From a virus (lineage: Duplodnaviria > Caudoviricetes): DNA of 55,048 nt. This document shows, in pieces, positions 18,765 to 36,267 of this stretch (position 1 is the stretch's first letter; every line of letters starts with the position of its first letter). A program made the position numbers and the translations under genes. The stretch is taken from the IMG/VR virus record IMGVR_UViG_3300029448_000054, positions 1 to 55,048 of that record, one strand, 5' to 3'. The notes beneath the pieces are model-generated. The model was not told the origin of the DNA and did no database searches. It saw nothing but the letters and a program-made list of their open reading frames with translations.

Positions 18765-20220
18765 CGACATGGTCGTTATAATCCTCTGGGTGCTGTATAA
18801 ACCCACCTTCGCGGAAACGTCGGAGAGCCTGTGTTACTGTATCAACAAAATCATCATTTTCACCAACCGGAAATGAAGCACACTCTTCTATCACTTCCTC
18901 TGCCCATCTAGTATCTGGAGCCCATACTAACCCACTTTCTAGGATTGGCGCAATGGAGTTTACTCGAGTATATTTATCATTACCTCTACTCGGGGAATAA
19001 TTCTGCACAGGAATACCCATACTACGCAATTCTTGCGTTAATGGCATACCAGTCGCTTTTGCCTCAATAATCACACATTCAGGCTCCCAATAATCATATT
19101 CTTCTTTTGCAATACGCTTTAAATCAGGGAAATCCCATCTACCTCTTCGCGCATCTACTAGAATAATGTTGGGGGGTTCTCCCTCCACGGGATAAAATAC
19201 ACCCCATGTGGTTATCGCACTATAATCAGCATTCTCCTTTTTACTAAATGCTGTATCATAACTCTGCATAACATAACTTAATTTAGGGATATCTTCTTTT
19301 TCCCACTGATTCCACCACTCACGCTTCAAAATAGCAGTCGTCTCACTCGTAGGATTCTGCTGCCATTGGGCTTCCCATTTACCTACTGATAATGAAGCCT
19401 TCACCTTTAATAATTCTTCTTTTTTCCAAAACTCAGGCCATAACACTTTATAACCATCTTCAGATTTTTCATCTTCTAATAATGCCGGAAACTCTACTAC
19501 TTCCCATTGGTCAGCCAGTACATCTCGCGCTTGCTGTTTTAATAATTTGCCAGTTAAATCAATCTCTGACCAACGCGTCATCACAATTACAATCGCTCCT
19601 CCAGGCTGCAATCTCTGCCGTGGACCAGATGTATACCACTCATAGGCATTCTCTAATGCTGCGGGTGACATTGCATCTTGTTCGGAGTGCGGGTCATCAA
19701 TAATCATTAAATCCGCACCACGGCCTGTAATCGCGCCACCTACACCCGCCGCAAAATATTCACCGCCAGCATGGGTCTCCCATCTGCCAGCCGCACTACT
19801 ATCCTGCCGTAATTTTACATCTGGAAAGACCAGAGAGTAATCGGTACTATTCATAAGGTTACGCACCTTTCGGCCAAACCTCACCGCTAACTCACCTGTA
19901 TGCGTTGCTTGAATAATCTTTAACTTTGGATTCAAACCCATTAAATAACTCGGCAATAAATAACTGGCATACTCCGACTTCGTATGTCGCGGCGGCATAT
20001 TCACAATTAACCGCTTAATACTACCATCAGCTAAACCATTAAACTTCTTTGCCATTATCTTATGGTGCTTCCCCTCAATAAACTCAGGCCATACTGTTTT
20101 ACAATAGGCCATAAAATCCTTCTTCGCGTGATCACTCGAGATGTGCTGTTTCTGCTTCTCAAGCAAACGTGCATACTGCTTCAATACTTCTTCAGGGACA
20201 GTCATTGGGGCATTTGTCAT
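18730..20220 (-). CDS. terL: Terminase large subunit
   Basis: Walker A variant NMPPRHTKS, Walker B IIDDP, VMTRW, RNase-H-like nuclease SYDTA / DDFVD. Confidence 0.95.
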   Translation of the reverse strand: MTNAPMTVPEEVLKQYARLLEKQKQHISSDHAKKDFMAYCKTVWPEFIEGKHHKIMAKKFNGLADGSIKRLIVNMPPRHTKSEYASYLLPSYLMGLNPKLKIIQATHTGELAVRFGRKVRNLMNSTDYSLVFPDVKLRQDSSAAGRWETHAGGEYFAAGVGGAITGRGADLMIIDDPHSEQDAMSPAALENAYEWYTSGPRQRLQPGGAIVIVMTRWSEIDLTGKLLKQQARDVLADQWEVVEFPALLEDEKSEDGYKVLWPEFWKKEELLKVKASLSVGKWEAQWQQNPTSETTAILKREWWNQWEKEDIPKLSYVMQSYDTAFSKKENADYSAITTWGVFYPVEGEPPNIILVDARRGRWDFPDLKRIAKEEYDYWEPECVIIEAKATGMPLTQELRSMGIPVQNYSPSRGNDKYTRVNSIAPILESGLVWAPDTRWAEEVIEECASFPVGENDDFVDTVTQALRRFREGGFIQHPEDYNDHVDVPPRTNSYYG

Positions 20221-20387
20221 AATTATTTAATAATATAAAAATTTTCTTGGCGCAAGACTCTCCGATCATTGTTTCAAAAAGGGGGGTGGAGGTACGCTGA
20301 ATAATTTTCAGAGTGGTAATGATTTGGACAGAACCGTGTACTGCGCTGCGCTGGTACAGGTTCATCGCTCTCTAGGGGGGTTGCCCC

Positions 20388-20445
20388 TGTTGCAAAAGTG
20401 CAACACTGTAACAAATGTGCAGCGGGGTACCTTTTGGCACCCCGC
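20388..20445 (-). terminator. Two hairpins downstream of the GA/TC-free gene (possible terminator or end structure)
   Basis: GCGGGGTGCC-AAAA-GGTACCCCGC (20422-20445) and TGTTGCA-CTTT-TGCAACA (20388-20405); no clean U-tract. Confidence 0.5.
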
Positions 20446-20454
20446 CGCTAGGGG

Positions 20455-21000
20455 TTAGCTTGCCAGTACTAGCTTGCCAAACGCTGTGCCGTATGTGGCA
20501 ACTGTTTGGCTGCTTAAAGCAAACGCACCGTTTAGTATTGCGGCAACCGCGTTTTGGTTAGTGTGTGCGCTGTTAGCGTTACACAGTACACCGCTGCCGC
20601 CTTTAAGCACACCGTTAGCATGTGTGCCAGCAATGTGCATTGCTGCATGGCACTGTACTAATGGGGTGGCTGTTAGCTTGCTAGGCACTTTTGTATTAAT
20701 GCCAGCAACATTAAAGCATTTAACACCCTTAACAGTATGCTGTGGCACACCATTTACACACGCCCATAACATTAAGCCGCGTGCGCTAATAACGCCCTGC
20801 TTGTTTGGCTGCATAACCGCCCATAGCTTGCCGCCACCAAACAGTACACCGTTTGCCAATGCATTAGGCGTAAACTGTAAAGCTACATTGCCCATGCCGT
20901 TAGCGTTAATAAAGGCGTGCATAGCTGCAACATTAATATTGCCAGCCGCACCATTTGCACCGTTAAAAGCCTGTGCCGCTTGTGTTGTTGTGTTAACCAT
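20455..21000 (-). CDS. Asp/Glu-free 181-aa protein encoded by GA/TC-free DNA; paralog of 21739..22191
   Basis: Has its own promoter-like region, RBS hairpin and TAA stop; shares motifs with the 21739 protein. Confidence 0.8.
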   Translation of the reverse strand: MVNTTTQAAQAFNGANGAAGNINVAAMHAFINANGMGNVALQFTPNALANGVLFGGGKLWAVMQPNKQGVISARGLMLWACVNGVPQHTVKGVKCFNVAGINTKVPSKLTATPLVQCHAAMHIAGTHANGVLKGGSGVLCNANSAHTNQNAVAAILNGAFALSSQTVATYGTAFGKLVLAS

Positions 21001-21050
21001 TGTTAACCCCTTTTTAGTTAACGCCGCCGCCCTATGCGGTGGCTATACAT

Positions 21051-21082
21051 ATTTTATGCCACAGGTGGGATATGGGTGTAAA
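21051..21082 (-). promoter_or_regulatory. Putative sigma70-type promoter for the GA/TC-free gene
   Basis: TTTACA at 21077-21082, then CATAAA at 18 nt or TAAAAT at 20 nt; AT-rich upstream; followed by a 5' hairpin at 21023-21043. Confidence 0.55.
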
Positions 21083-21135
21083 CCCCTAAAAGCACATTAA
21101 TGCAAAAATAATTGCAATAACCCCAATTAACGCCA

Positions 21136-21312
21136 TTAGCATTTGTGCCGCCATGCACCGATATAGCCGACCATAAAGCTGGATAAGCCAATGGCAAATA
21201 TCATTGCGGTCATGTAATGGTGCAACGGTGGGATATTAAACAGGTCCGCACTGGTAAACATTAAGAACACACCAGCCAACATAAGATAGGTATATGTAAA
21301 GATCATCAACAT
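21136..21312 (-). CDS. Small 2-TM membrane protein
   Basis: GGAG RBS before MLMIFTY; two hydrophobic segments. Confidence 0.5.
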   Translation of the reverse strand: MLMIFTYTYLMLAGVFLMFTSADLFNIPPLHHYMTAMIFAIGLSSFMVGYIGAWRHKC

Positions 21313-21314
21313 AA

Positions 21315-21503
21315 CTAGCTCCCCATAACAGTGCCATGCTGACACCATGCAGTAATTTCATCAAACAGTGCTTTCGGCACAATTTTGGTTTCATCGTTTG
21401 GTCCCCAGCCAATATTTACGCATTGACTAATAGGCACACAGCCAAACTCACGGTGATACAAAAAGTCCTCATCCGTTTGCTCTCGTAAAGTATCGTAGTC
21501 CAT
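21315..21503 (-). CDS. Hypothetical protein
   Basis: AAAGGAG RBS; 62 aa. Confidence 0.6.
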   Translation of the reverse strand: MDYDTLREQTDEDFLYHREFGCVPISQCVNIGWGPNDETKIVPKALFDEITAWCQHGTVMGS

Positions 21504-21674
21504 AACCAGCTCCTTTGCGTTAAGTTATGTATTTACAGTGCCAGCCGCCGAGCTGTCTTGCCAGCACAAAATTGTCACAGCGACCAGGATTGACTTCTGG
21601 AGAAGTCTGGCGAAATTTAATGATGTAGTGTGAGTATATATGACGGTGCATATATAATGAGATCTTTTTCTATC

Positions 21675-21696
21675 TCCATCCATCCATCCATCCATC
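21675..21696. repeat. (TCCA)5TC microsatellite
   Basis: Read directly; abuts the terminator U-tract. Confidence 0.9.
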
Positions 21697-21726
21697 AAAA
21701 AAGAAAGGGCGACCAATCGGCCGCCC
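21697..21726 (-). terminator. Rho-independent terminator
   Basis: GGGCGGCC-GATT-GGTCGCCC-TTTCTTTTTT on the minus strand. Confidence 0.85.
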
Positions 21727-21738
21727 ATCCTAAGATAA

Positions 21739-22191
21739 TTAAGCTGGGATAACGAACAGCTCAACGAAGTTCTTGCCCCATGTAGCCTTGGCTGATGGTG
21801 ACTGCCCACCATTAAGCGCGTCCAATAAAGCATGGAACTTTCTTGCCTTGATTGACTTATGGGCTAAGTCTACATCGGTTAAGGTAACTACATGACCCTC
21901 ATGGTCGGAGTTGATCAACTGCCATACTACCTTACCACGAAGGGTGAGGTTGGGATTGCCTACCTCATCAAATAATGTTTTTGCCTTTTCAAAAGGAAAA
22001 GGATTAGGCGTACCAACTACATCAACAGTAGGCCGGACACCGACATTATTTGGATTGCCGCCAGCTTGCTCTTGGACAAACTTAAAAATGTCCTGAGCGG
22101 TGACTCCCATATTACGCTGGTCCTCGGGGAGAGAATTAATGCCCTGAAAAGTGATTTCCTGAGCTACGACTTTTTTAGCTGATTTAGCCAT
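21739..22191 (-). CDS. 150-aa early protein, normal-composition paralog of 20455..21000
   Basis: Start MAKSAKK follows an AGAAAGGA RBS; monocistronic with promoter and terminator. Confidence 0.8.
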   Translation of the reverse strand: MAKSAKKVVAQEITFQGINSLPEDQRNMGVTAQDIFKFVQEQAGGNPNNVGVRPTVDVVGTPNPFPFEKAKTLFDEVGNPNLTLRGKVVWQLINSDHEGHVVTLTDVDLAHKSIKARKFHALLDALNGGQSPSAKATWGKNFVELFVIPA

Positions 22192-22242
22192 GATAAGTTC
22201 CTTTCTACGAACTTGAGTTAGTAGCAACCCTGCTACACATAT

Positions 22243-22271
22243 AGAGTAGCAAATAGACCTTCCGCTGTAAA
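22243..22271 (-). promoter_or_regulatory. Putative sigma70 promoter
   Basis: TTTACA-N17-TACTCT followed by hairpin GTAGCA-GGGT-TGCTAC. Confidence 0.65.
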
Positions 22272-22344
22272 CACCTAAGTTATCATAATGAGTAAAAAAG
22301 ATACGAGCAGCTCGACACCTGATGTCATGTGAATTCTACCGATA

Positions 22345-22782
22345 TCACCGGACCTCTCGACCTGGATCGTCGCTCATCATCAGTCGTCGGAGGACTCTTG
22401 CCCATCCATCTCCATCCATCGGCCATTCCATCCGGTCATCGTACAATGGCTCTCCATCCATCAATCTCTTACTCAGGTTTCGGCCATCCATAAATAATAG
22501 CTGCCCTGACGAAGGATGATGAACCAAGTTCCAAACGCATCCACCAACAGATGTTCTTGAGGTCTGCCATGCTATTTGATGAGGACGCCACTTGGGGAAC
22601 TTCTTGTCAGACTTTGTCGCAAGTATCTTTAACTCTACCCAGAAATCCTTGCCATTCAAGCAACCATTGACATCAGGCACTCCTGGACTTGCCCATGACT
22701 CCATTCTAGTCCAGTGTACCCCAAGGGGTCTGGTTCCATCGCGTAAGGCTTTCCAAAGTTTAGACTCAGGGTTCTTTGCCAT
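22345..22782 (-). CDS. PD-(D/E)xK nuclease (Holliday junction resolvase/VRR-NUC-like)
   Basis: E..LW...R.E....GVPD....FWVELK...PHQIAW. Confidence 0.8.
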   Translation of the reverse strand: MAKNPESKLWKALRDGTRPLGVHWTRMESWASPGVPDVNGCLNGKDFWVELKILATKSDKKFPKWRPHQIAWQTSRTSVGGCVWNLVHHPSSGQLLFMDGRNLSKRLMDGEPLYDDRMEWPMDGDGWARVLRRLMMSDDPGREVR

Positions 22783-23326
22783 CAGGTAAAACCTCCAGTT
22801 TGTCCATCTCTATGACAGGGCTGGTCGCTTCTACCAATGCTGGGTAGTCTTGCTGTATCCGCTTAATTTCAGTAAGCACTTCTTCTTTACTCATTTGGTC
22901 TATCTTACCATGCAGTATTTCTTTACGGTCAATGTAAAGACCCGCAGCTTGGCCTCTTGATTTTTCAGCCGAGACTGCTGCTGCATAGTTTCCATTCTGC
23001 ATAGCTACATCACGGAGTTGTGCTAACTTCTGTACATGGCTTTCAAAGGTGACCTCGTACTTCTGTTGTAGCTCTTTCTTTATTTCATATACCCTGTTCA
23101 AAACCTGAGGGTAGTTACGTCCGTTCAACATATGGCTTGCGATAGAGTGTGCATTGGATTCAGCGTACCCTGCCCTGAGTGCTGCTTCCGTCTGTGTAAC
23201 TTCTTCTGTTGCATAGATCATTGCAAACTTTTCCTGCATGGGTGTCAGCCCTTTTTCCACCCGAGGATTAGCCACAATGTCCAAACTGTTTTTATGAGTA
23301 ACCTTTGCCTTTGCCATAAGACTCAT
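22766..23326 (-). CDS. terS: Terminase small subunit
   Basis: LT..QEKFA..Y...TQTEAA.RAGY......AS..L HTH, then AAV.AE..RG.AAGLY.DRKE. Confidence 0.85.
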   Translation of the reverse strand: MSLMAKAKVTHKNSLDIVANPRVEKGLTPMQEKFAMIYATEEVTQTEAALRAGYAESNAHSIASHMLNGRNYPQVLNRVYEIKKELQQKYEVTFESHVQKLAQLRDVAMQNGNYAAAVSAEKSRGQAAGLYIDRKEILHGKIDQMSKEEVLTEIKRIQQDYPALVEATSPVIEMDKLEVLPDGKEP

Positions 23327-23650
23327 ACTACTTTTCTATAATAGGAAGGTAAATAGAAATCGAGTCATTTCAAAAAACCAACGGCTGAAACTCGCGTAGC
23401 TGTCTAAAGTTTAGACTACAATATATGATTTAGAGGTATAACCCTTTGATATGTTTGTATAGCCAGATAACGTATATTTGAATATCGGATAGAGTACCAT
23501 ACCCCATATTTCATTTTCGGTACTATATGTAAAAGTGCCAGAATATCAGAGAGCCACGGTTATTAGACCGTGACCCGTGACCTTTGTATTATTGTTAGAT
23601 AAAGATGATTACCAGTAAAACAGGTATCATATCCCAGAGTAATTCCATGA

Positions 23651-29265: not shown

Positions 29266-29793
29266 TCAAACGCTTAAATTATAATGAGTTAGCACTTTAT
29301 TGACTGGCTCAAAATCAGGTAGATCAGAAAACCTTTTGTATAAGAAGTTGATACCTGTATGCATAATCACTTTCATTTGTTCACTTTGACTTGAGTGGCG
29401 ATTAGAATAGAGTACCAGTTCAAGCATATCTGCCATTTTCAATCTATTCTTTTCATCTGCGGTAAGAACAAATATCAATCCAAGGTCTTCAAATACTTTT
29501 TTCTCAGCATCTTCAAATGCTTTTTGTACTTCAGGATAAGACCATTTAGCGGTAGCTGGTATATCACCAAGTATCAATTCAGGCACATCATGATACAATG
29601 AAGCCATGATGAGTTGTTTTGTACTATCAGGCCAGAGTTGGTCTATCAATATACTTACTGCGTATGAATGTGCTCCCACTGTCTGTCTTTCTGCTTGCAT
29701 GGCAACTGTATGGAAGCGCAATAAAAATTGAGCATCCCATGCTGTTGTCAAAGTTTTAATGTTTGGTATTGTCTGGCATTGGTGTCCCGCCAT
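29266..29793 (-). CDS. HD-domain 5'-deoxynucleotidase (YfbR-like)
   Basis: RFH...QTV..HS..V...LYHD.PE..LGDIP...K...K.ADMLE; start may lie further downstream. Confidence 0.85.
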   Translation of the reverse strand: MAGHQCQTIPNIKTLTTAWDAQFLLRFHTVAMQAERQTVGAHSYAVSILIDQLWPDSTKQLIMASLYHDVPELILGDIPATAKWSYPEVQKAFEDAEKKVFEDLGLIFVLTADEKNRLKMADMLELVLYSNRHSSQSEQMKVIMHTGINFLYKRFSDLPDFEPVNKVLTHYNLSV

Positions 29794-31675
29794 CTTTTAC
29801 CCCTCTTGACCAAGGCTTATCACTAAATGTCTTTTTTGCTTCGCCCCAACTCGGACCAAACTCTGCATCTACCACACTTGGTATCTGCATATCTACACAA
29901 GTCTCCATGATCTCTTGTATCACAGAGGCTGTTTCTGGTTCAGCTACTGATATATCTAATTCATCATGCACTTGTATCAATGGTGTTATACCTTCTTTAT
30001 GTAAAGCTACCATCGCAGCTTTTGTTTGGTCGGCAGCACTACCCTGTATCAATCGGTTAAGGGCTTTATATGTGAAAGCGCGTTTGATAGCTGGACCATG
30101 CTCAGCATATGCATCTTCATATGTCTGTGGTTTATACAATCCATAAGCATTTGGTTCCCATTTATCAAACCTACATTTGCGACCAAGCAGGGTACGGATA
30201 ACACCTTTATTAGAAGCACGGTTGACTACATAATCAGCAAGCTGTTGAACAAAAGGGACTTTACCATGATACTCTTTAAATAAATCTTTAGCATCCTCAT
30301 ACTCAAGTCCTAATTGTTCTGCCAGTTTATTCTTACCCATCCCATAGAACAAACCAAGGTTAATATCTTTTGCTTGTTTACGAGGTACTCCAACTATATC
30401 GGCAGCCATCTGGTGGAAATCTGTAGTAGCATCTACATTGTACTGGTCAGCAAACTCTTGTGCGCCAGTCAATTTAAGTAGGCTAGAATAATGGACGACG
30501 AGCCGTGGTTCTTGGCTACTATAATCAAAAGCACCCCACAGTTCACCTTCTTCGGGTAAGAACAATCCGCGTATCATAGGACCAATCTCAGCATTCCTTG
30601 CTGGTACTTGCTGTAGATTAGGATTGCTATAACTGAACCGACCTGTAACTGTCCCACCATCATCACTACGGAGGCTATGTGCCTCAGCATGAATACGACC
30701 GTTATGTTGGTGCTTTATAATAGTGTCGATAAAGGTGGTTCTAGCTTTATTCAGCTCACGAGCTCGAACCACGGCCTGAGGAAGTGCATGGGCATGGTTG
30801 GCTAGAAAATTCTTAGTGAAGCTAGGCTGGCCTGATTTGGGCGTTTTAGGGTAAGTCAACCCCTTTGCATCAAATGCTTTAGCGATACTTGCCGCTGCCC
30901 ATATATCAATATCTGTACCACCTGATTCTTGTAATACTTTTTCCTCTTCCCTTTGCAGATACACCTTTAACTCTTCAGCTTTTTCTAGGTCTACCCGCAC
31001 ACCTTTCTTACGCATATCAAATACAACTTTGAGGACTTGTAATTCAAGGTCAAATATATCTGCTATATCTTCTTTTACTATTATACCTTTAAAGAACTGC
31101 CACAATTTCAGGGTAAGTGCAGCATCCTGTTCAGCATATGCACCCACAAAATGAGCAGGGAGTTTCCACATTTCACTCTTAGCATTTACACCAAAAGAGT
31201 TAGCTGCTTCATATAAATCTTTTTCACTCTTACGCTCATTCAGGTAATCACGGCCTAAAGCATTGAGGGCATAACTAAACCTATTTTCATCAATAAGTGC
31301 AGCTACAATCATTGTATCTACAATACGGCCTTTTACTTCTATACCTTCTGCCCATAACCATCCAAGGTCATACATAGCATTATGCATAATATAATCACGC
31401 TCAATTGAGCATACATCAGCTAACCAGCGGAGTGTTTGTTTAGCATCAAGGTTACTACCATTATCATGCCGGATAGGGAAATACCAAGCAGCACCATCCA
31501 CAGCTACCGCGATGCCAATTACATAACCATCTTTACGAGGCCATCCACTACCACGAGATGTAAGGTTAGGGTCACAGGTTTCTAAATCAATAGATACCTC
31601 CCTAGCTTCCGATAGATCGGGATAGCCATCTGGCATTACCCATTCAGTCGGTGGTGTGAATAGTGGGAATTGCAT
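29756..31675 (-). CDS. polA: DNA polymerase family A with 3'-5' exonuclease
   Basis: Exo DLET/HNAMYD/YAEQDA; TGRFS..NPNLQQ; motif A DYSSQEPR; motif B RKQAKDINLGLFYG; motif C QVHDE. Confidence 0.96.
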   Translation of the reverse strand: MQFPLFTPPTEWVMPDGYPDLSEAREVSIDLETCDPNLTSRGSGWPRKDGYVIGIAVAVDGAAWYFPIRHDNGSNLDAKQTLRWLADVCSIERDYIMHNAMYDLGWLWAEGIEVKGRIVDTMIVAALIDENRFSYALNALGRDYLNERKSEKDLYEAANSFGVNAKSEMWKLPAHFVGAYAEQDAALTLKLWQFFKGIIVKEDIADIFDLELQVLKVVFDMRKKGVRVDLEKAEELKVYLQREEEKVLQESGGTDIDIWAAASIAKAFDAKGLTYPKTPKSGQPSFTKNFLANHAHALPQAVVRARELNKARTTFIDTIIKHQHNGRIHAEAHSLRSDDGGTVTGRFSYSNPNLQQVPARNAEIGPMIRGLFLPEEGELWGAFDYSSQEPRLVVHYSSLLKLTGAQEFADQYNVDATTDFHQMAADIVGVPRKQAKDINLGLFYGMGKNKLAEQLGLEYEDAKDLFKEYHGKVPFVQQLADYVVNRASNKGVIRTLLGRKCRFDKWEPNAYGLYKPQTYEDAYAEHGPAIKRAFTYKALNRLIQGSAADQTKAAMVALHKEGITPLIQVHDELDISVAEPETASVIQEIMETCVDMQIPSVVDAEFGPSWGEAKKTFSDKPWSRGVKDGGTPMPDNTKH

Positions 31676-31817
31676 CTTTTACCTTTACCATCATAGGTTG
31701 GTTACATTTAGAACAGTGAGGCCATTTGTTTTTGAGTTTACGGAAGGTAATAACTTTCTTTTCCCTTCCGCATTCACATTCAGCCAATACTTCTCTATCT
31801 AGCTTTTCGTTATCCAT
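31644..31817 (-). CDS. 57-aa Zn-ribbon protein (not in ORF track)
   Basis: MDNEKLDREVLAECECGREKK...WPHCSKCNQPM; GAGG RBS; fills the gap before polA. Confidence 0.55.
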   Translation of the reverse strand: MDNEKLDREVLAECECGREKKVITFRKLKNKWPHCSKCNQPMMVKVKDAIPTIHTTD

Positions 31818-32208
31818 TCCCTCGCATTCGCACTTCTGCCTCTACAAGAAACAAATACCTACGCAAATCACGGATATCATCAAGTATACCTTCCTCACGC
31901 ATATCATCTTTAGCAGCTAAGAATACATCATAATTGTATTCATTCACTTGCTTTTCAAGCCTATCCCATTTGCGAGCCAGCATCATAAATGCACCAACAC
32001 CGCCACGCTGTTTCCAACTATCACCATAAGATTGCTCAGAACCATGCAGCCCTTCTACATCTTGATTAGCTAACCCGAGGATATTATTAACAATAGGGCT
32101 ATAATCATCAGGGGTAATATCATCCTTTTTTGCCATAACCGTATACTCCTCCCAATTTAATTCCTTCATACGCCTTTTCATGTATTGTTCGTGGCTTTCT
32201 CTTCCCAT
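31810..32208 (-). CDS. Nucleotide-modification-associated all-alpha (MazG-like/DUF1599-type) protein
   Basis: YGDSW...G..G.....RKWDRL...E...D...DL..Y; start may be ATG 32181 or 32136. Confidence 0.65.
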   Translation of the reverse strand: MGRESHEQYMKRRMKELNWEEYTVMAKKDDITPDDYSPIVNNILGLANQDVEGLHGSEQSYGDSWKQRGGVGAFMMLARKWDRLEKQVNEYNYDVFLAAKDDMREEGILDDIRDLRRYLFLVEAEVRMRGNG

Positions 32209-33206
32209 TTATCTCTCCTACGTTCTAACCATTCCCAAGTGGCTAAATGCCAATCATCGGGTTTTATATCTGCACAATGGTCAAAAGCTAAAGCTAATTC
32301 TTTAGCTTTCCATGCTTGCCATACTCGGTGCATAGGTTGTGCCAAATCAGAGAAACAGGAGTTTTTATATGCTCTTGGCCTTTCAGCATCCTCCATAAAC
32401 CAACTAAGCTCTTTATCAAATGATTCTATATTATTTACCAAAGCATCTGGCCTAATCATACGCACATTATATGATTCATAATCAGGCTGCATACCCTCTA
32501 GCTTTTTTAATACTTCAGTATAAGCATGGAGGTTATTACTAAACTGTGTATAGATGCCAACACTCGCGCCGATGCGTGAGGCTATATACTCTTGGAGAAT
32601 GGACATATGGACAGCATTAGCTCCCAATGCACCCCAGATCATATCATTACTACGGTTGCATACTGTCATATCAAGTATATTATCACGCACACTAAAATAG
32701 ATATGGGTATTACAAGGGTGGTCTTTACAGCTATTAGCCATCCGTAAATCACCTTCAGCATCCCACATTGCAAGCACTGCTCGTCTATCATTTGTATGTG
32801 TCATTAATCTATGGGTGATCACATCAATCTGGTCACGATGGAAATAATTACGCCAACGATAACCATATGCTCCCTGTAATAATTTACCATCATCACTATA
32901 CTCACCCATCCGTGCATTATAGCGTTGTATCCACTCTAAATCATTACGCCCTGCTAACATCCACAGGCTTTCCATAAAATGAAATATGGGGTTTGCATCA
33001 CGCTCGGGATAGAACAGTACACGTTCGCGTGGGCTATTGTAGACAATAGCGCATGGTTCACGGAACTCAATTGCTTTACCATTACGAGTTTCTACTTCTA
33101 CACCATCAGCTTCTAATGCTTGCTTCACAACAAACAATGCTTCACTTACATTTCCTACGGTGAAAGTATGCACCCCTCGCATGGGTGCTTTGCCATATAA
33201 TGCCAT
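32178..33206 (-). CDS. Thymidylate-synthase-family enzyme, probable dUMP hydroxymethylase
   Basis: TRNG, GAYG.RW, RRAV, catalytic D.PCN and RSNDMIWGALGAN, keeping the dUMP-specifying Asn; resembles the M6/YuA-type phage enzymes as I recall them. Confidence 0.8.
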   Translation of the reverse strand: MALYGKAPMRGVHTFTVGNVSEALFVVKQALEADGVEVETRNGKAIEFREPCAIVYNSPRERVLFYPERDANPIFHFMESLWMLAGRNDLEWIQRYNARMGEYSDDGKLLQGAYGYRWRNYFHRDQIDVITHRLMTHTNDRRAVLAMWDAEGDLRMANSCKDHPCNTHIYFSVRDNILDMTVCNRSNDMIWGALGANAVHMSILQEYIASRIGASVGIYTQFSNNLHAYTEVLKKLEGMQPDYESYNVRMIRPDALVNNIESFDKELSWFMEDAERPRAYKNSCFSDLAQPMHRVWQAWKAKELALAFDHCADIKPDDWHLATWEWLERRRDKWEEKATNNT

Positions 33207-33289
33207 ATTTAACCGCCTTTCTATGGGGTTTTAAAGCCGCTACAGCGGCCTGAGTTAATGTGCCTTACCCTACTACTAAAAGCAACCCT

Positions 33290-34309
33290 CTAGCTGTCTG
33301 AGTAACCTGTAATAAAGTCAAAATGTTTCTTGACCCTTTTAGTATAAGTACCTCCTTTTAACGCCTCCTTGATTGCAAGCGTTGTTTCCTCAGTAGGCTC
33401 GGGTAATGCCTTGCGTCCCATGCGGTCAGGTAACAATCCATTACGCAAAGTGGTATTGTCACAACCGTTACAAGGACCGAAATCACGTTGCCCATGATAC
33501 AATTTTGTTCGCGCTGCATGAAATGCCTCCCCCTGCCATACTTCTTCCATTGGTGTATCAATTACATTGCCACACTTATACCATCCTACCCAATCATTAC
33601 AGCAAACAGCAACATTACCATCCCAACGTATAGACATCTCACGGAAAGGTTTGGCACACCGTTTACCATCTTGTTCATGGTTTAGATGGAAAGCGTTACC
33701 AGCGTGGTTACTGACTTGGGCATGGGTTCCACTTGTAGCGAGCGTAAGATCCATTCCAACCACGATAATATGTTCAGTAGCTTTTCGTCGTTGGTGAGGG
33801 TTTGCGTTACGTTCTGCGGGGTATTCGTATACAGGGTATGGACCATTATATCTCTCCTTTATTTTATCCACTATTTTTATACGATCATAATTATCAAGAA
33901 ACAGTACATTCAACCCTGCTTCCATCAGTTGGTTGACACTTTTTTCAGTGTCGCGTAAAAGACCACCACCATTACTGGTCATCATTAAAGATGTTTTTGG
34001 TAACTCCTGACGGAACAATCTAATCATATCAATAAAGAAAGGATGCATAGTTGGCTCACCATGCATGGCAAACTCTAGCCGAGGGTTCCACCCTGCTTCT
34101 TTTATACGAGCACATATAGCCCTAGCTGCTTTGATACTTAGATATTTGTAAGGGGCAGATGCTTTACCATGCGTATTATCCGGACCATCTGCACCATTCT
34201 CTCGTATAGATTGTATACCGCAAAAAGAACAAGCAAGGTTACAACCCTCTGCTAATTCTATCTGAATAGAGTTTGGTGGGTCTTGGTGATTGTTAGATTG
34301 CGCCGCCAT
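33290..34309 (-). CDS. Radical SAM enzyme with C-terminal SPASM/twitch domain
   Basis: CNLACSFC (CxxxCxxC), HGEP, SNG; C..PF...I.WDG.V..CC.D...GN...PC.GC. Likely start MAAQS. Confidence 0.9.
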   Translation of the reverse strand: MAAQSNNHQDPPNSIQIELAEGCNLACSFCGIQSIRENGADGPDNTHGKASAPYKYLSIKAARAICARIKEAGWNPRLEFAMHGEPTMHPFFIDMIRLFRQELPKTSLMMTSNGGGLLRDTEKSVNQLMEAGLNVLFLDNYDRIKIVDKIKERYNGPYPVYEYPAERNANPHQRRKATEHIIVVGMDLTLATSGTHAQVSNHAGNAFHLNHEQDGKRCAKPFREMSIRWDGNVAVCCNDWVGWYKCGNVIDTPMEEVWQGEAFHAARTKLYHGQRDFGPCNGCDNTTLRNGLLPDRMGRKALPEPTEETTLAIKEALKGGTYTKRVKKHFDFITGYSDS

Positions 34310-35078
34310 CTTTAGCCGCCTTTCTCCATTGTACACGAACATCCCAGCGTGTTTTCATACCTTCCCACCCTGTTTTAGTTTCTTTCTGTACTGCTTTCAC
34401 ATACATAGGAAACTCTTCTGCTAATGCTAGGCTTGCTTTTTCTTGTAACTCTGCATTGCGGTATGAACTGCAACCTCCAGCCGCACCGGAAGCACCACGT
34501 TGATCCCATGTCCAATCAACAATAACAGCATTACGATGTCCTGACTGAAACAGTTTCAGGGTAACGTAATAATCCTCCATCAGATCCATGGCATCATAAC
34601 GTATACCTAAATTATGTATTATTTCAGGGCGTATTGCATGGACAGCATTTTGTCGCATACCATATTTAACTGTATCGGGGAAGTGCTTATCATTCATTTG
34701 CCGTGGGCTGAGGCCAACATGGGTATGGTTCATTAATAACCATTCCATACGCTCCCATAACTCATGCATTTCTTCTTGGTTTGTTTTTCTTAGGTTGGCA
34801 GCCATCCCATGTATGCGGCGACCAAATATAAGATCATCATCCAAAACAATAATTTTATCATGTCCTGCCTCCATAGCATGTTCTAATATAAACTGCCTTA
34901 CATTATTGATTCCTTTAATTTCACCGCGATTTATACAATCACGTCCCTGTTTTGTATGCCAGTTTATTTCTTCTTGTGGGCAAACAAGAGCAGCATACTC
35001 TCGGGCTTCCGGACCAATACTATCCCAAGTAATTTGGTTATTCATCCTACCCCTTGTTGGTATATATATCGGTATCAT
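34293..35078 (-). CDS. GT-A fold glycosyltransferase of the TET/JBP-associated (TAGT/GREB1/base-J GT) type
   Basis: IYIPTRGR, RQFIL, VLDDD, EDY..TL.L...G..N, GGC...R. Confidence 0.8.
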   Translation of the reverse strand: MIPIYIPTRGRMNNQITWDSIGPEAREYAALVCPQEEINWHTKQGRDCINRGEIKGINNVRQFILEHAMEAGHDKIIVLDDDLIFGRRIHGMAANLRKTNQEEMHELWERMEWLLMNHTHVGLSPRQMNDKHFPDTVKYGMRQNAVHAIRPEIIHNLGIRYDAMDLMEDYYVTLKLFQSGHRNAVIVDWTWDQRGASGAAGGCSSYRNAELQEKASLALAEEFPMYVKAVQKETKTGWEGMKTRWDVRVQWRKAAKDGGAI

Positions 35079-35368
35079 ATCTCATCCTCATCAAATATTA
35101 CTTGGCCTTCTAATACTGCGGCCTCTAACTCTTCATCGGTTAAATGTTCTAACTCAAACATCGTTGGTTTTGGCTTTGGTTTCAACCTTTTCTTTTTTGG
35201 TTTTACCAATTTCAGTTTGGGCGGCTCTTTGCTCTTGGGCGGCTCTAATACTTCCAATGTCCGATAATTGTATTTGCATTTCGGACAATACCTCTTCCTC
35301 CAAGTGGTTTTGTTTCGAGTTCGACTGTCCACGACGGAAGATCTGCCATTGCATTTTGGGCACAACAT
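35075..35368 (-). CDS. NrdR-like N-terminal Zn-ribbon protein
   Basis: M.CP.C....VVDSR......RKR.C..C...Y.T.E; no ATP-cone. Confidence 0.7.
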   Translation of the reverse strand: MLCPKCNGRSSVVDSRTRNKTTWRKRYCPKCKYNYRTLEVLEPPKSKEPPKLKLVKPKKKRLKPKPKPTMFELEHLTDEELEAAVLEGQVIFDEDEI

Positions 35369-35370
35369 AT

Positions 35371-36267
35371 CTACGCCACCTCCCCATGTACAGCCTCCAG
35401 CATAGAACCTTGTAACCCATTATACTTACTGCGAGGTGTACCTTGACCAAGGCGTACACGCTCATATTTATCCCACTCGCATAAGCTATGTTCAATGCAA
35501 CGCATATCCACTGCCAAATTCGGGATGTGATCACCAAGATAACGGTGCGAATCTTCGTGTAGATCTTGCATCTCCCTATTACTTTGATAGGCACTTAACG
35601 CTTTAGTGAGGGGTCTGCCATGGATCCTGTTGAGGCCACGTTTTGCTCCCGGACCAGCGTTTGCCCATTTGTATTTATCTTTTGCTTGATCAAGGACAGG
35701 TGTGTAGTTGAGGTCTGTGACGACCTCATAAGACATAAAACCTCCCCCGCCCCATCCTTTATATGCACCCAACGCTTTGTGTACTTCTTCCAGCGATTGC
35801 GTATCAGCGGCGGTCTGCGCCAACGCTTCTCTATTCTCCCATATCGGCGAAAGGAAATGGTCAACAACGACCTCCGACTTTGGTGCTTTAAGACCTTGGT
35901 TAGTGATTATATACGCACCAGTGAATGTCCGTAAACCATTGTCAATTCTAGTTTGTATAAGTTCTTTTGTGCGAGCAGGATTAAATTCTTCTACCCAACC
36001 ATGTTCTTCAGCAAACTCACTTGTGCCAACCATACGAAACATACAACAGTTAAATATCATTTCACCATGTGGGCGGTTATCATTTGGCTTAGTCCAGTTT
36101 TGGCGCATCCAAACAGTCACCCTATCATTCTCACGGAAAGGGTTAGTAAACTTATAATCCCGCAGTATAGGGTCATCAGTCCAAGGGGCTGGTTGCCCCT
36201 TGGCTCGTTTTTGGTAAATAGCGTGACGCTCGTTTATCCAGTAGCAGAACCTTTCTATGTTCTCCAT
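35371..36267 (-). CDS. aGPT-Pplase1 / 5hmdU-kinase helical-domain family DNA-modification protein
   Basis: F.YWINERH.IY.KR..G.P.PWTDDPIL..YKFTN.FRE.DR, FTGAYII, G.GF..YEV..DL, GPGA.RGL, EH.LCE.DKY. Confidence 0.85.
   Translation of the reverse strand: MENIERFCYWINERHAIYQKRAKGQPAPWTDDPILRDYKFTNPFRENDRVTVWMRQNWTKPNDNRPHGEMIFNCCMFRMVGTSEFAEEHGWVEEFNPARTKELIQTRIDNGLRTFTGAYIITNQGLKAPKSEVVVDHFLSPIWENREALAQTAADTQSLEEVHKALGAYKGWGGGGFMSYEVVTDLNYTPVLDQAKDKYKWANAGPGAKRGLNRIHGRPLTKALSAYQSNREMQDLHEDSHRYLGDHIPNLAVDMRCIEHSLCEWDKYERVRLGQGTPRSKYNGLQGSMLEAVHGEVA

What the first reader, a model, noticed from the sequence alone, without database searches (positions are those of the whole stretch)
20373..21068. 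A 696-nt island with no GA and no TC dinucleotide, spanning a whole gene and its RBS
Seen in sequence: reading base by base, the last TC is at 20371-72 and the next GA is at 21069-70, inside the promoter spacer; after that there is none until 21160. About 85 would be expected at 1/16 each. Neither strand therefore carries 5'-TC-3'. The 181-aa gene has no Asp or Glu (GAN codons), one Arg, AGY-only Ser and a TAA stop. Its RBS is AAAAAGGGG instead of this phage's usual AGAAAGG, and the downstream hairpins are also GA/TC-free, so the constraint acts on DNA and not only on protein. Established: thymidine hypermodification in phages M6, ViI and phiW-14 was inferred to target TG/TC contexts. Inference: this phage hypermodifies T in TC, and keeps one gene unmodifiable so host RNA polymerase can read it first (a 'bootstrap' gene). 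An alternative is escape from a TC-targeting defence such as DarT (TNTC/TCTC) or GA/TC-containing restriction sites on first-entering DNA. The island lies between terS and terL, where genome ends may be.
Basis: partly seen in the sequence, partly recalled or inferred. Interest (0 to 1): 0.96.

Follow-up and report, generated by a model that had tools for sequence, protein, structure and literature searches.

The report
Phage gene unit purged of GA/TC
A marine phage that carries thymine-modification genes keeps one small gene, from its promoter to its terminator, free of the DNA step GA/TC, at the cost of all aspartate and glutamate in the protein, so something in the infected cell must read exactly that two-letter step.

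Summary
Positions 20373-21068 hold no GA and no TC, where about 71-87 are expected. The next longest gap in the window is 91 bp.

The island is a complete transcription unit on the minus strand: a sigma-70-like promoter, a leader hairpin, a GGGG ribosome-binding site, a 181-aa ORF without Asp or Glu, and terminator hairpins.

The ban acts on nucleotides. It is conserved just upstream of terL in 53 of 71 informative relatives. The protein is a recoded paralog of the ordinary gene about 0.7 kb upstream (21739-22191).

Some lineages have regained TC on the message strand, but message-strand GA (template-strand TC) stays banned. The constraint therefore follows the direction of transcription. It also covers untranscribed promoter DNA.

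Best reading (about 0.45): the unit keeps its template strand free of a TC-context thymine hypermodification made by the phage itself. Neither the modification nor its context is shown. One relative keeps the modification genes and the twin gene without any purge.

Main rival (0.2): immunity of the mRNA to a GA-specific RNA modifier such as CmdT.

This scan has noted such islands before on other DNA (81 notes, at least 69 genomes). Two literature searches found no paper describing them.

The parts
20373..21068 (.). Run with no GA and no TC on either strand (696 nt)
20373..21200 (-). Message-strand GA-free (= template-strand TC-free) run. It reaches about 120 nt upstream of the -35 hexamer.
   Evidence: plus-strand TC-free run of 830 from 20371
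20455..21000 (-). 181-aa ORF with no Asp or Glu; a recoded member of the b-like protein family
21007..21015 (-). Ribosome-binding site AAAAAGGGG (GA-free)
   Evidence: conserved GGGG/GGTG sites in relatives
21023..21043 (-). 5' leader hairpin (GCCACCGC-ATAGG-GCGGCGGC)
   Evidence: read; the same position holds a hairpin in relatives
21051..21087 (-). Sigma-70-like promoter: AGGGGTTTACA (-35 hexamer at 21077-21082), an 18-nt spacer with the lone message-strand TC, and the -10-like CATAAAAT (21051-21058)
   Evidence: Consensus match only; no start site has been mapped.
20419..20448 (-). GC-rich hairpin just after the stop codon (terminator-like)
20375..20404 (-). Second hairpin (20389-20404), and the G/C run with a small stem (20375-20387) that marks the downstream edge of the purge
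   Evidence: read; the edge lies 76-112 nt after the stop in relatives
21739..22191 (-). Gene b: the ordinary paralog (150 aa, 8 Asp + 7 Glu, 18 GA + 30 TC), with its own promoter of the same type (AGGTGTTTACA at 22266-22276) and its own terminator (21707-21726)
29266..36267 (-). Thymidine-modification-type gene cluster: HD phosphohydrolase, PolA, thymidylate-synthase homolog (32178-33206), radical SAM/SPASM (33290-34342), TAGT glycosyltransferase (34293-35078) and a PF18723 protein (35371-36267)

Best explanation
The island is one complete transcription unit: promoter, leader, ORF and terminator. Every GA/TC step has been removed from it. It encodes a diverged copy of the neighbouring gene b, recoded so that no codon or codon junction creates the step. 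That is why the protein has no Asp or Glu.

What is never tolerated is 5'-TC-3' on the template strand, which is GA in the message. In most lineages the other strand is purged as well.

The most likely reason: the phage puts a bulky mark on thymines that are followed by C. This unit is kept free of that mark, at least on the strand that RNA polymerase reads and across its promoter. The host sigma-70 polymerase can then express this one gene whatever the modification state of the DNA. Virion DNA entering a cell, or late fully modified DNA, are the situations where this would matter.

Shown: the purge, its nucleotide-level nature, its extent, its conservation, its strand asymmetry, the paralogy, and the presence of the modification genes.

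Inferred: that the modification exists, that it is TC-specific, that it hinders transcription, and when the gene is needed.
For: 1. The constraint is at nucleotide level. Re-encoding the same protein gives at least 15 GA/TC in 2000 of 2000 trials. Shuffling the gene's own synonymous codons gave zero in 0 of 5000 trials.

2. It is conserved.
- 40 of 61 loci that encode a relative (29-100% aa identity) have 0 GA and 0 TC in the ORF. Their free runs are 449-973 bp where the contig does not cut them, against 121 bp or less elsewhere in the same loci. Many of these loci are near-duplicates.
- Among 80 terL relatives (71-99% aa identity), 71 have at least 600 nt upstream of terL. Of those, 53 have an island of 500 bp or more directly upstream of terL, 4 are cut by a contig end, 9 keep only the message-strand GA ban, and 5 have none or a decayed one.

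3. It covers untranscribed promoter DNA.
- The -35 hexamer lies 68-84 nt before the ATG in 29 of 32 usable lineages (-105 to -68 overall).
- Across all 38 listed rows, the nearest upstream GA is at least 32 nt beyond the -35 hexamer (median 73) and the nearest upstream TC at least 21 nt (median 87). In 6 of those rows the script matched the RBS instead of the promoter, which inflates their distances.
- Matched control: promoter plus leader of gene b holds a mean of 5.7 GA + 6.0 TC (n=20). The island unit holds 0.58 + 0.37 (n=19).

4. It follows the direction of transcription.
- GA in the ORF is 0-2 in 61 of 61 loci.
- 15 loci carry 8-30 TC.
- In six relaxed lineages read in detail, TC falls in all three codon phases, while every GA is a new Asp or Glu codon.

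5. The gene is a recoded paralog.
- Gene b lies upstream of the island gene on the same strand in 47 of the 48 loci where tblastn finds it.
- A profile-profile comparison aligns the two families end to end (E 3e-5 to 1e-4, probability 47-55%).
- In sister clades the island proteins are 34-55% identical to ordinary b-like proteins (BLASTP 5e-20 to 6e-46).
- An HMM built only from Asp/Glu-containing members hits 20 of 41 purged proteins. The best of 410 shuffled controls scored E 0.0054.

6. Modification genes are present.
- The window has a TS homolog, a PF18723 protein, a TAGT glycosyltransferase and a radical SAM/SPASM protein.
- PF18723 is found in 13 of 15 related records. The 2 misses are fragments, 56% and 73% complete.

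7. Literature, passages read.
- Thymine hypermodification is context-specific: TS in PMC6449724, mainly TG in PMC13458397.
- A phage T-dioxygenase prefers NTC (PMC13229309).
- Bulky major-groove groups block bacterial RNAP at promoters. With T7 RNAP, template-strand modifications matter more than non-template ones (PMC11550810).

8. It is the only such zone in the genome. Intergenic DNA elsewhere has a GA/TC density of 0.100, against 0.103 in coding DNA.
Against: - No chemistry or sequence context is known for this phage.
- TG is enriched in the island (69 observed, 45 expected from base composition). The mark would therefore have to be TC-only, unlike the TS or TG contexts in print.
- Of the lineages with ordinary TC density on the message strand, the two records checked (G002, G003) keep the same TS, rSAM, TAGT and PF18723 genes. 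'Unmodified DNA' cannot be the whole requirement.
- Record G007 (72% complete) has TS, PF18723 and both b-like genes. Its longest GA/TC-free run is 69 bp and its terL-proximal twin has 9 GA + 19 TC. G006 holds a decaying island.
- I found no gene-content difference between island-bearing and island-less members of that clade. All of them carry the same ~430-aa gene between TS and PF18723.
- All other genes and promoters, including b's promoter of the same type, have normal GA/TC density. The mark therefore cannot block transcription in general.
- In the 8 of the 58 loci with a called ORF whose nearest upstream GA lies 9-10 nt before the ATG, it sits in GGAG- or AGAGG-type ribosome-binding sites.
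- Two cultured phages with a PF18723 protein (Sonora, YuA) have no dinucleotide-free island in their first 50 kb.
- None of the four cluster proteins I inspected has a Walker A motif, so the pathway may not follow the kinase route that has been characterised.
Confidence: 0.45

Rival explanations
1. The purge gives the mRNA immunity. A host (or phage) enzyme marks or cuts single-stranded RNA at GA, as the abortive-infection ADP-ribosyltransferase CmdT does. This one message stays translatable because it has no GA anywhere, including in its ribosome-binding site. Its product would then act when all other translation is blocked.
For: - The message-strand GA ban is the universal feature: 0-2 GA in 61 of 61 loci. 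TC is free to return in 15 of them.
- The RBS is GGGG or GGTG instead of GGAG in most lineages.
- CmdT modifies N6 of adenine in GA dinucleotides of ssRNA and blocks translation. Its authors point to GA in Shine-Dalgarno sequences (PMC11618068, abstract and passages read).
- The cassette is mosaic. Relatives with 98% identical terL carry an island protein only 33-34% identical, as is common at loci involved in conflict with the host.
- The loss of the purge in G007 without loss of the modification genes is easier to explain by a host factor.
Against: - The GA-free zone begins at least 32 nt (median 73) upstream of the -35 hexamer, in DNA that this promoter does not transcribe.
- The promoter and leader are purged about twelve-fold relative to the twin's.
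- A GA-specific RNA enzyme does not explain the TC ban held by 40 of 61 loci.
- In the 8 of the 58 loci with a called ORF whose nearest upstream GA lies 9-10 nt before the ATG, that GA sits in the RBS, where such an enzyme should hurt most.
- The host and its defence systems are unknown.
- All relatives examined carry thymine-modification genes. This reading has no use for them.
Confidence: 0.2
2. The purge gives immunity to a host enzyme that attacks DNA at T followed by C. Examples are a DarT-type ADP-ribosyltransferase, which modifies the second T of TNTC in single-stranded DNA, or a TC-specific deaminase. The template of one counter-defence gene would then stay readable.
For: - Template-strand TC is the step that is never tolerated.
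- DarT of Thermus modifies the second T of TNTC in ssDNA (PMC5179494, passages read).
- The cassette is mosaic.
Against: - A local purge does not protect the rest of the genome from a DNA-damaging enzyme.
- A TNTC enzyme would need only that tetranucleotide removed, not every TC.
- Deaminase damage would lower G+C and raise TT/AA. Instead the island has higher G+C than the window (49.7% against 41%), and its TT and AA counts (66 and 47) lie between the two expectations computed (TT 51.9 from base composition, 69.9 from genome frequencies; AA 36.8 and 55.1).
- The host is unknown.
Confidence: 0.1
3. The island is a DNA site rather than a gene-expression device. It could be a packaging-recognition region, or the genome end that enters the cell first, kept free of the mark (or of GA/TC-containing restriction sites) for terminase or for early events. 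This could hold together with the best explanation.
For: - The island lies between terS and terL, directly upstream of terL, in all relatives that have one.
- Contigs end inside the island or within 200 nt of it in 17 of 80 distinct loci, against 4.6 expected. Five contigs (L014, L018, L033, L039, L046) stop inside or just beside the conserved inverted repeat between the island and terL.
Against: - The asymmetry follows the direction of transcription. A double-strand binding site should not show that.
- The edges coincide with a promoter and a terminator.
- The contig break points are scattered, not at one position. That fits assembly breaks at a hypervariable cassette as well.
- Only 2 of the 16 four-base palindromes contain GA/TC, so this is not general restriction avoidance.
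Confidence: 0.1
4. There is no nucleotide constraint: either the protein simply needs to lack acidic residues, or the stretch is a chance or hypermutation product.
For: The protein family lacks Asp and Glu almost throughout: 25 of the 33 database homologs have neither.
Against: - The same protein would carry at least 15 GA/TC under the phage's codon usage.
- Junction GA/TC is absent in 0 of 5000 synonymous shuffles.
- Non-coding flanks and the promoter are purged too.
- Relaxed lineages accept 1-2 Asp/Glu, and P0023 has 5 Asp + 1 Glu. Acidic residues are therefore tolerated.
- Chance probability is about 2e-28.
Confidence: 0.02

Closest known systems
Context-specific thymidine hypermodification derived from 5-hmdU (phages M6, ViI, PhiW-14, SH-Ab 15599) and the NTC-preferring phage T-dioxygenase 5mYOX97
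   Same: The window encodes a thymidylate-synthase homolog, a PF18723 protein and a glycosyltransferase next to PolA. Published marks sit in dinucleotide contexts: TS, TG or NTC.
   Different: None of the passages I read describes a modification-free island or a recoded gene. The context needed here is TC alone. No P-loop kinase and no Tet/JBP domain were found. The radical SAM/SPASM + TAGT combination is not one of the characterised pathways.
CmdTAC abortive infection: CmdT ADP-ribosylates adenine N6 in GA dinucleotides of mRNA (PMC11618068)
   Same: It is an enzyme known to read exactly GA on the message. A GA-free message, including a GA-free RBS, would be immune.
   Different: It acts on RNA only. 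Here the purge also covers the promoter and, in most lineages, TC as well. No GA-free escape gene is described in the passages I read.
   Same: Sequence is purged of the word that a sequence-specific enzyme reads.
   Different: Here the word is a dinucleotide step and the purge is total. It is confined to one transcription unit, and it costs the protein two amino acids.
DarT (DarTG): ADP-ribosylation of the second T of TNTC in ssDNA (PMC5179494)
   Same: It targets a thymine followed by C on single-stranded DNA.
   Different: It needs a four-base word. It is a host toxin, and local avoidance would not save the genome.
Pre-early genes on first-entering DNA (T5 first-step transfer, T7 leading end with gene 0.3), recalled
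   Same: A small unit driven by a host-type promoter, possibly near a genome end, that may have to work before anything else.
   Different: Neither the timing of expression nor the genome ends are known here. Those systems are not purged of a dinucleotide.

Membership tests
5-hmdU-derived thymidine hypermodification pathway | dUMP hydroxymethylase-type thymidylate synthase homolog | tested here: inconclusive
   PF00303 hit at 9.6e-20 and PHROG 5131 at 3.7e-104. Hydroxymethylase and methylase cannot be told apart by these hits.
5-hmdU-derived thymidine hypermodification pathway | Protein with the HMUDK helical / aGPT-Pplase1-type domain | tested here: met
   PF18723 hit at 4.9e-53. The closest cultured homolog (phage Sonora, 39.7% identity) is annotated aGPT pyrophosphorylase.
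5-hmdU-derived thymidine hypermodification pathway | P-loop 5-hmdU DNA kinase | tested here: not met
   No Walker A motif in the PF18723 protein or in the three neighbouring small proteins inspected. Only those four proteins were checked.
5-hmdU-derived thymidine hypermodification pathway | Modified thymine present in virion DNA, in a defined context | not testable with these tools
   Needs LC-MS or native-DNA sequencing.
Target of a CmdT-like GA-specific mRNA modifier (immune transcript) | No GA anywhere in the transcript, including the RBS | tested here: met
   Window. Relatives: 49 of 61 ORFs have 0 GA and 12 have 1-2. In 8 of the 58 loci with a called ORF, the nearest upstream GA lies 9-10 nt before the ATG, in the RBS.
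Target of a CmdT-like GA-specific mRNA modifier (immune transcript) | Constraint confined to transcribed sequence and to GA | tested here: not met
   The GA-free zone starts at least 32 nt upstream of the -35 hexamer. TC is also banned in 40 of 61 loci. The transcription start is inferred from a consensus promoter and has not been mapped.
Classical restriction-site avoidance | Depletion of 4-8 bp, mostly palindromic, words across the genome | tested here: not met
   The purge concerns one dinucleotide step in one 0.7-kb unit. The rest of the genome has a GA/TC density of 0.10.
b-like protein family (C-terminal ALLNGG...WG...LV motif; no Pfam or PHROG family) | Significant sequence similarity to ordinary members | tested here: met
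   Window protein: hhalign E 3e-5 to 1e-4 over the full length, which is borderline. A 74%-identical relative scores E 3e-5 against an HMM of ordinary members. Sister-clade island proteins score 1e-17 to 1e-39.
Winged-helix / RRE-type DNA- or peptide-binding fold (for b) | Structural match to solved winged-helix domains | tested here: inconclusive
   Model of b: pLDDT 77.8. Foldseek found no match at E <= 0.001. The best VIA-align Z is 4.3, with several winged-helix or RRE rows at Z 2.6-4.1. These values are below what the tool itself treats as meaningful.

The most novel reading that the evidence does not exclude
These phages keep a second copy of a gene, rewritten down to its amino-acid alphabet, so that its promoter and template strand can never carry the phage's own TC-specific thymine mark. 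This would be a natural 'epigenetically invisible' gene whose expression does not depend on the modification state of the genome. The purged dinucleotide would then report the sequence specificity of an uncharacterised DNA-modification pathway directly from sequence.
Probability: 0.4. Interest if true: 0.92.

Novelty: new variant of a known kind. Interest (0 to 1): 0.85.

Why it matters
If the purge marks where a phage's own DNA modification must not fall, three things follow.

1. The specificity of unknown modification enzymes could be read from genome sequence alone.
2. It would show that bulky base modifications carry a cost for gene expression, and that phages pay to avoid that cost by giving up two amino acids in a protein.
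3. It would identify a protein family (b and its purged twin) that the phage needs under two different DNA or RNA states.

If the RNA-level rival holds instead, this would be the first natural escape from a GA-directed mRNA toxin by recoding.

Either way, something in the infected cell reads one dinucleotide step. The pair b / purged twin is a ready-made matched control for experiments.

Tried and rejected
**Family and fold searches**
- Pfam and PHROGs found nothing for the island protein, for its antisense ORF (20474-21100, +) or for b.
- Island protein model: pLDDT 66.1. Foldseek against PDB gave a best E of 5.4.
- Model of b: pLDDT 77.8. Foldseek best E 1.6, VIA-align best Z 4.3.
- The ESM Atlas gave no usable hit for b.
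- Function therefore stays open.

**Phage collection**
- blastn and tblastn of the island against 50,697 phage records gave no match.

**RNA evidence**
- Of 19 runs listed, I laid 4 runs from RNA libraries. All four are Logan contigs.
- Short contigs of X2, X3 and X4 (one study) lie on parts of the island. X1 covers terL and 21109-23497 but not 20180-21108.
- Contigs show neither level, strand nor ends, and RNA libraries can hold DNA. Nothing is concluded about expression.

**Gene-content correlates of island loss**
- I first saw that island-less G006 and G007 lack TAGT and rSAM.
- G008-G010 have islands and also lack TAGT, so that correlation was dropped.

**Tree of 61 b-like proteins** (one duplicate row was dropped beforehand)
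- The 'purged' label needs 4 changes on the tree, but well-supported branches force only 1.
- Composition bias and long branches make the tree unfit to count recoding events.

**Profile search with ordinary b proteins against 1.84 billion representatives**
- 42 hits at E <= 0.001.
- Of the 34 hits of at least 120 aa, 2 have no Asp or Glu and 5 more have 1-3.
- The family is wider than this phage group. A profile of ordinary members under-samples the purged ones.

**Other negatives**
- The Tet/JBP domain was not found in the window, but the control rang nowhere, so this is uninformative.
- Deaminase hypermutation is rejected on composition.
- Two full-text searches for a published description of such islands found none. 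Subscription journals and supplements were not searchable.
Full report
**Observation**

The window is one 55,048-bp virus record. CheckV rates it 94% complete. Between TC at 20371-72 and GA at 21069-70 there is neither GA nor TC.

- The next largest gaps are 91 bp (adjacent) and 71 bp.
- The window's own frequencies predict 71 occurrences in the 696 nt. The island's base composition predicts 87.
- All 48 other trinucleotides are present.
- Of the ten double-strand steps, only GA/TC has an outlying free run.
- The island has higher G+C than the window (49.7% against 41%). GC (82 observed, 43 expected) and TG (69 observed, 45 expected) are enriched.

**Anatomy**

Almost all genes lie on the minus strand. 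Read on that strand, the island is a self-contained unit:

- AGGGGTTTACA, with its -35 hexamer at 21077-21082
- an 18-nt spacer that holds the single message-strand TC
- CATAAAAT (21051-21058)
- a leader hairpin (21023-21043)
- the ribosome-binding site AAAAAGGGG
- ATG at 21000 and a 181-codon ORF ending in TAA at 20455
- a 13-pair hairpin (20419-20448), a second hairpin, and a C-run

The promoter is a consensus match only. No transcription start has been mapped.

The antisense ORF of 208 aa is expected, because a GA/TC-free stretch cannot contain TGA on either strand. I treat it as non-coding. Only the minus-strand product has a conserved family.

**The ban is on nucleotides**

The protein has no Asp or Glu, one Arg (CGC) and seven Ser (all AGC).

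- Keeping the protein and drawing codons from this phage's usage gives a mean of 9.3 GA + 17.9 TC. The sum never fell below 15 in 2000 trials.
- Permuting the gene's own synonymous codons never gave zero in 5000 trials.
- Codon junctions are therefore policed too.

**Conservation**

Thirty-three database proteins, 39-99% identical, form a family. Twenty-five of them have no Asp and no Glu.

*IMG/VR loci encoding a relative.* There are 61 such loci; many are near-duplicates.
- In 40 the ORF has 0 GA and 0 TC. Free runs are 449-973 bp where the contig does not cut them, against 121 bp or less elsewhere in the same loci.
- Six more have 1-3 TC.
- Fifteen have 8-30 TC but only 0-2 GA.
- In six such lineages read base by base, TC falls in all three codon phases. 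Every GA is the start of a new Asp or Glu codon.

*Search by terL.* This returned 80 loci at 71-99% aa identity. Of these, 71 have at least 600 nt upstream of terL:
- 53 have a GA/TC-free run of 500-1182 bp directly upstream of terL
- 4 are cut by a contig end
- 9 keep only the message-strand GA ban
- 5 have none or a decayed one (L098, L100, L101, L102, L108)

**Extent**

- The free zone ends 76-112 nt after the stop for GA in all but three loci, just past the hairpins.
- The stop codon is always TAA or TAG.
- The -35 hexamer lies 68-84 nt before the ATG in 29 of 32 usable lineages (-105 to -68 overall).
- Across all 38 listed rows, the nearest GA is at least 32 nt further upstream (median 73) and the nearest TC at least 21 nt (median 87). 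In six of those rows the script caught the RBS look-alike instead of the promoter, which inflates their distances.
- So promoter DNA that this promoter does not transcribe is purged as well.
- Elsewhere in the window, intergenic DNA is not depleted: 0.100 against 0.103 in coding DNA.

**The twin**

A first-stage note on this window (e1-6292959) says the same. I tested the idea here.

*Gene b (21739-22191).* It has 8 Asp + 7 Glu, 18 GA + 30 TC, a promoter of the same type (AGGTGTTTACA at 22266-22276), a leader hairpin, an AGAAAGG ribosome-binding site and its own terminator.

*Synteny.* b lies upstream of the island gene on the same strand in 47 of the 48 loci where tblastn finds it.

*Homology.*
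- BLASTP of the two window proteins shows nothing (E 4.6).
- Profile against profile, they align end to end (E 3e-5 to 1e-4, probability 47-55%).
- In sister clades the case is plain. All 28 further islands I inspected encode Asp/Glu-free proteins of 141-225 aa. Thirteen of these are 34-55% identical to ordinary b-like proteins.
- An HMM built only from Asp/Glu-containing members hits 20 of 41 purged proteins. The best of 410 shuffled controls scored E 0.0054.

*Matched control.* From 50 nt upstream of the -35 hexamer to the ATG, b units hold a mean of 5.7 GA + 6.0 TC (n=20). Island units hold 0.58 + 0.37 (n=19).

*Function.* The function of either twin is unknown: no Pfam or PHROG family and no convincing fold match. 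There is only a weak scatter of winged-helix-type rows for b.

**What could read GA/TC: the phage's own DNA mark**

The window encodes a cluster next to PolA and an HD protein:
- a thymidylate-synthase homolog
- a PF18723 protein (HMUDK helical / aGPT-Pplase1 type)
- a TAGT glycosyltransferase
- a radical SAM/SPASM protein

I found no Walker A motif in the four cluster proteins checked, and no Tet/JBP match, although that control was uninformative.

PF18723 is present in 13 of 15 related records. The two misses are fragments.

Print supports dinucleotide-context thymine marks:
- TG/TC was inferred from restriction resistance in M6, ViI and PhiW-14 (PMC6449724, abstract and passages).
- The context is mainly TG in SH-Ab 15599 (PMC13458397).
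- A phage T-dioxygenase prefers NTC in vitro (PMC13229309).
- Lee et al. 2018 state that the exact motifs were not yet known (PMC5889632).

PMC11550810 (passages) reports two relevant points. Bulkier major-groove groups block bacterial RNA polymerase at promoters. With T7 polymerase, template-strand modifications matter more than non-template ones. That matches the asymmetry seen here.

**What speaks against that reading**

- TG is not avoided, so the mark would have to be TC-only.
- Of the lineages that regained message-strand TC, the two records checked (G002, G003) keep the same TS, rSAM, TAGT and PF18723 genes.
- Record G007 has TS, PF18723 and both b-like genes, but its longest GA/TC-free run is 69 bp. 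G006 holds a decaying island.
- Within that clade I found no gene that goes with the island. All members carry the same ~430-aa gene between TS and PF18723. TAGT and rSAM are missing from island-bearing G008-G010 as well.
- All other genes, and b's own promoter, carry the step at normal density.
- Sonora and YuA, cultured phages with a PF18723 protein, have no dinucleotide-free island in their first 50 kb. HTVC027P (terL 62% identical) has none in the 41 kb examined, and no such cluster is annotated there.

**Rivals**

1. *A GA-directed RNA enzyme.* CmdT ADP-ribosylates adenine N6 in GA of single-stranded RNA (PMC11618068). This fits the universal message-strand GA ban, the GGGG ribosome-binding sites and the mosaic cassette. 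It does not explain the purged promoter, the TC ban or the 8 loci whose nearest upstream GA lies in the ribosome-binding site, 9-10 nt before the ATG.
2. *A TC-directed DNA enzyme of the host.* DarT modifies the second T of TNTC (PMC5179494). This gives the same template-strand prediction. However, it would need only a longer word removed, and a local purge would not spare the rest of the genome.
3. *A packaging site or first-entering end.* The position next to terL suggests it. So do contig breaks in or near the island: 17 of 80 distinct loci against 4.6 expected. But the asymmetry follows transcription and the break points are scattered. This reading could co-exist with the main one.
4. *Protein-level or chance explanations.* These are excluded.

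**Verdict**

It is best described as a transcription unit rewritten to lack one dinucleotide step, carrying a recoded paralog of an ordinary neighbour. The constraint is tied to transcription, and its core is the template strand.

I put 0.45 on avoidance of the phage's own TC-context thymine mark, 0.2 on mRNA immunity to a GA-reading enzyme, and 0.1 each on a host TC-directed DNA enzyme and on a site or end function. The rest is unknown.

The scan has noted the same kind of island on other DNA (81 notes in at least 69 genomes). I found no paper that describes it.

Noticed in passing
window 20221-20380 (minus strand), and the same place in L005, L012, L014, L032, L033, L039, L046, L049: A C-run followed by a conserved imperfect inverted repeat (CCTGTAC...GTACACGG in the window) lies between the island's last hairpin and terL. 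Five contigs (L014, L018, L033, L039, L046) stop inside or just beside it. Contigs end in or within 200 nt of the island in 17 of 80 distinct loci, against 4.6 expected. This could be a pac or terminus element, or it could reflect assembly breaks at a variable cassette.
   Followed up: partly
window 21086-21142 (minus strand): A tiny ORF of 18 hydrophobic codons. Its ATG overlaps the stop of the 70-aa membrane-protein gene. It lies inside the purged zone upstream of the island promoter, and similar mini-ORFs sit at this place in L001, L018 and L030. It may not be a gene.
   Followed up: no
window 21001-21011, 21077-21087, 22266-22276 (minus strand): The word AGGGGTTTACA at the island's -35 recurs with one mismatch over its own ribosome-binding site (AGGGGTTAACA) and at the promoter of gene b (AGGTGTTTACA). 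It could be a shared operator. The number of matches with up to 2 mismatches in the whole window is not above chance (20 against 15.7).
   Followed up: partly
L075, L076, L077, L078 (terL 95-98% identical to the window): Very close relatives carry a different island: 991-1025 bp, with a protein only 32-34% identical to the window's. In L075, the one of these whose ORFs were inspected in full, the purge also covers the homolog of the small membrane-protein gene (window 21136-21348). The cassette is mosaic and is exchanged between near-identical phages.
   Followed up: partly
window 33290-35078; L141-L144, G006, G007: The genes between the TS homolog and the PF18723 protein differ by clade. The window's clade has radical SAM/SPASM + TAGT + a Zn-ribbon protein. 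The clade at about 73% terL identity has a single ~430-aa protein. G014 has an unrelated 353-aa protein. The chemistry of the mark probably differs while the purged step stays GA/TC.
   Followed up: partly
L101 / G006 and L100, terL-proximal b-like gene: An intermediate state. In L101 this gene has 5 GA (all in Asp/Glu codons) and 0 TC in 429 nt. In L100 it has 11 GA and 5 TC. This looks like a purge in decay, or one in the making.
   Followed up: partly
proteins P0099-P0129: The b-like family, with its C-terminal ALLNGG(Y/F)S.SS..WGT.(F/Y)(V/I)KLV motif, is spread over at least 42 clusters at 50% identity in public metagenomes. It has no Pfam or PHROG family. Acidic content ranges from 0 to 12%.
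   Followed up: partly
window, whole: About 70 of 73 chosen ORFs lie on the minus strand, and base composition is strongly skewed (T 17,053 against A 15,297; C 12,659 against G 10,039 on the plus strand).
   Followed up: no
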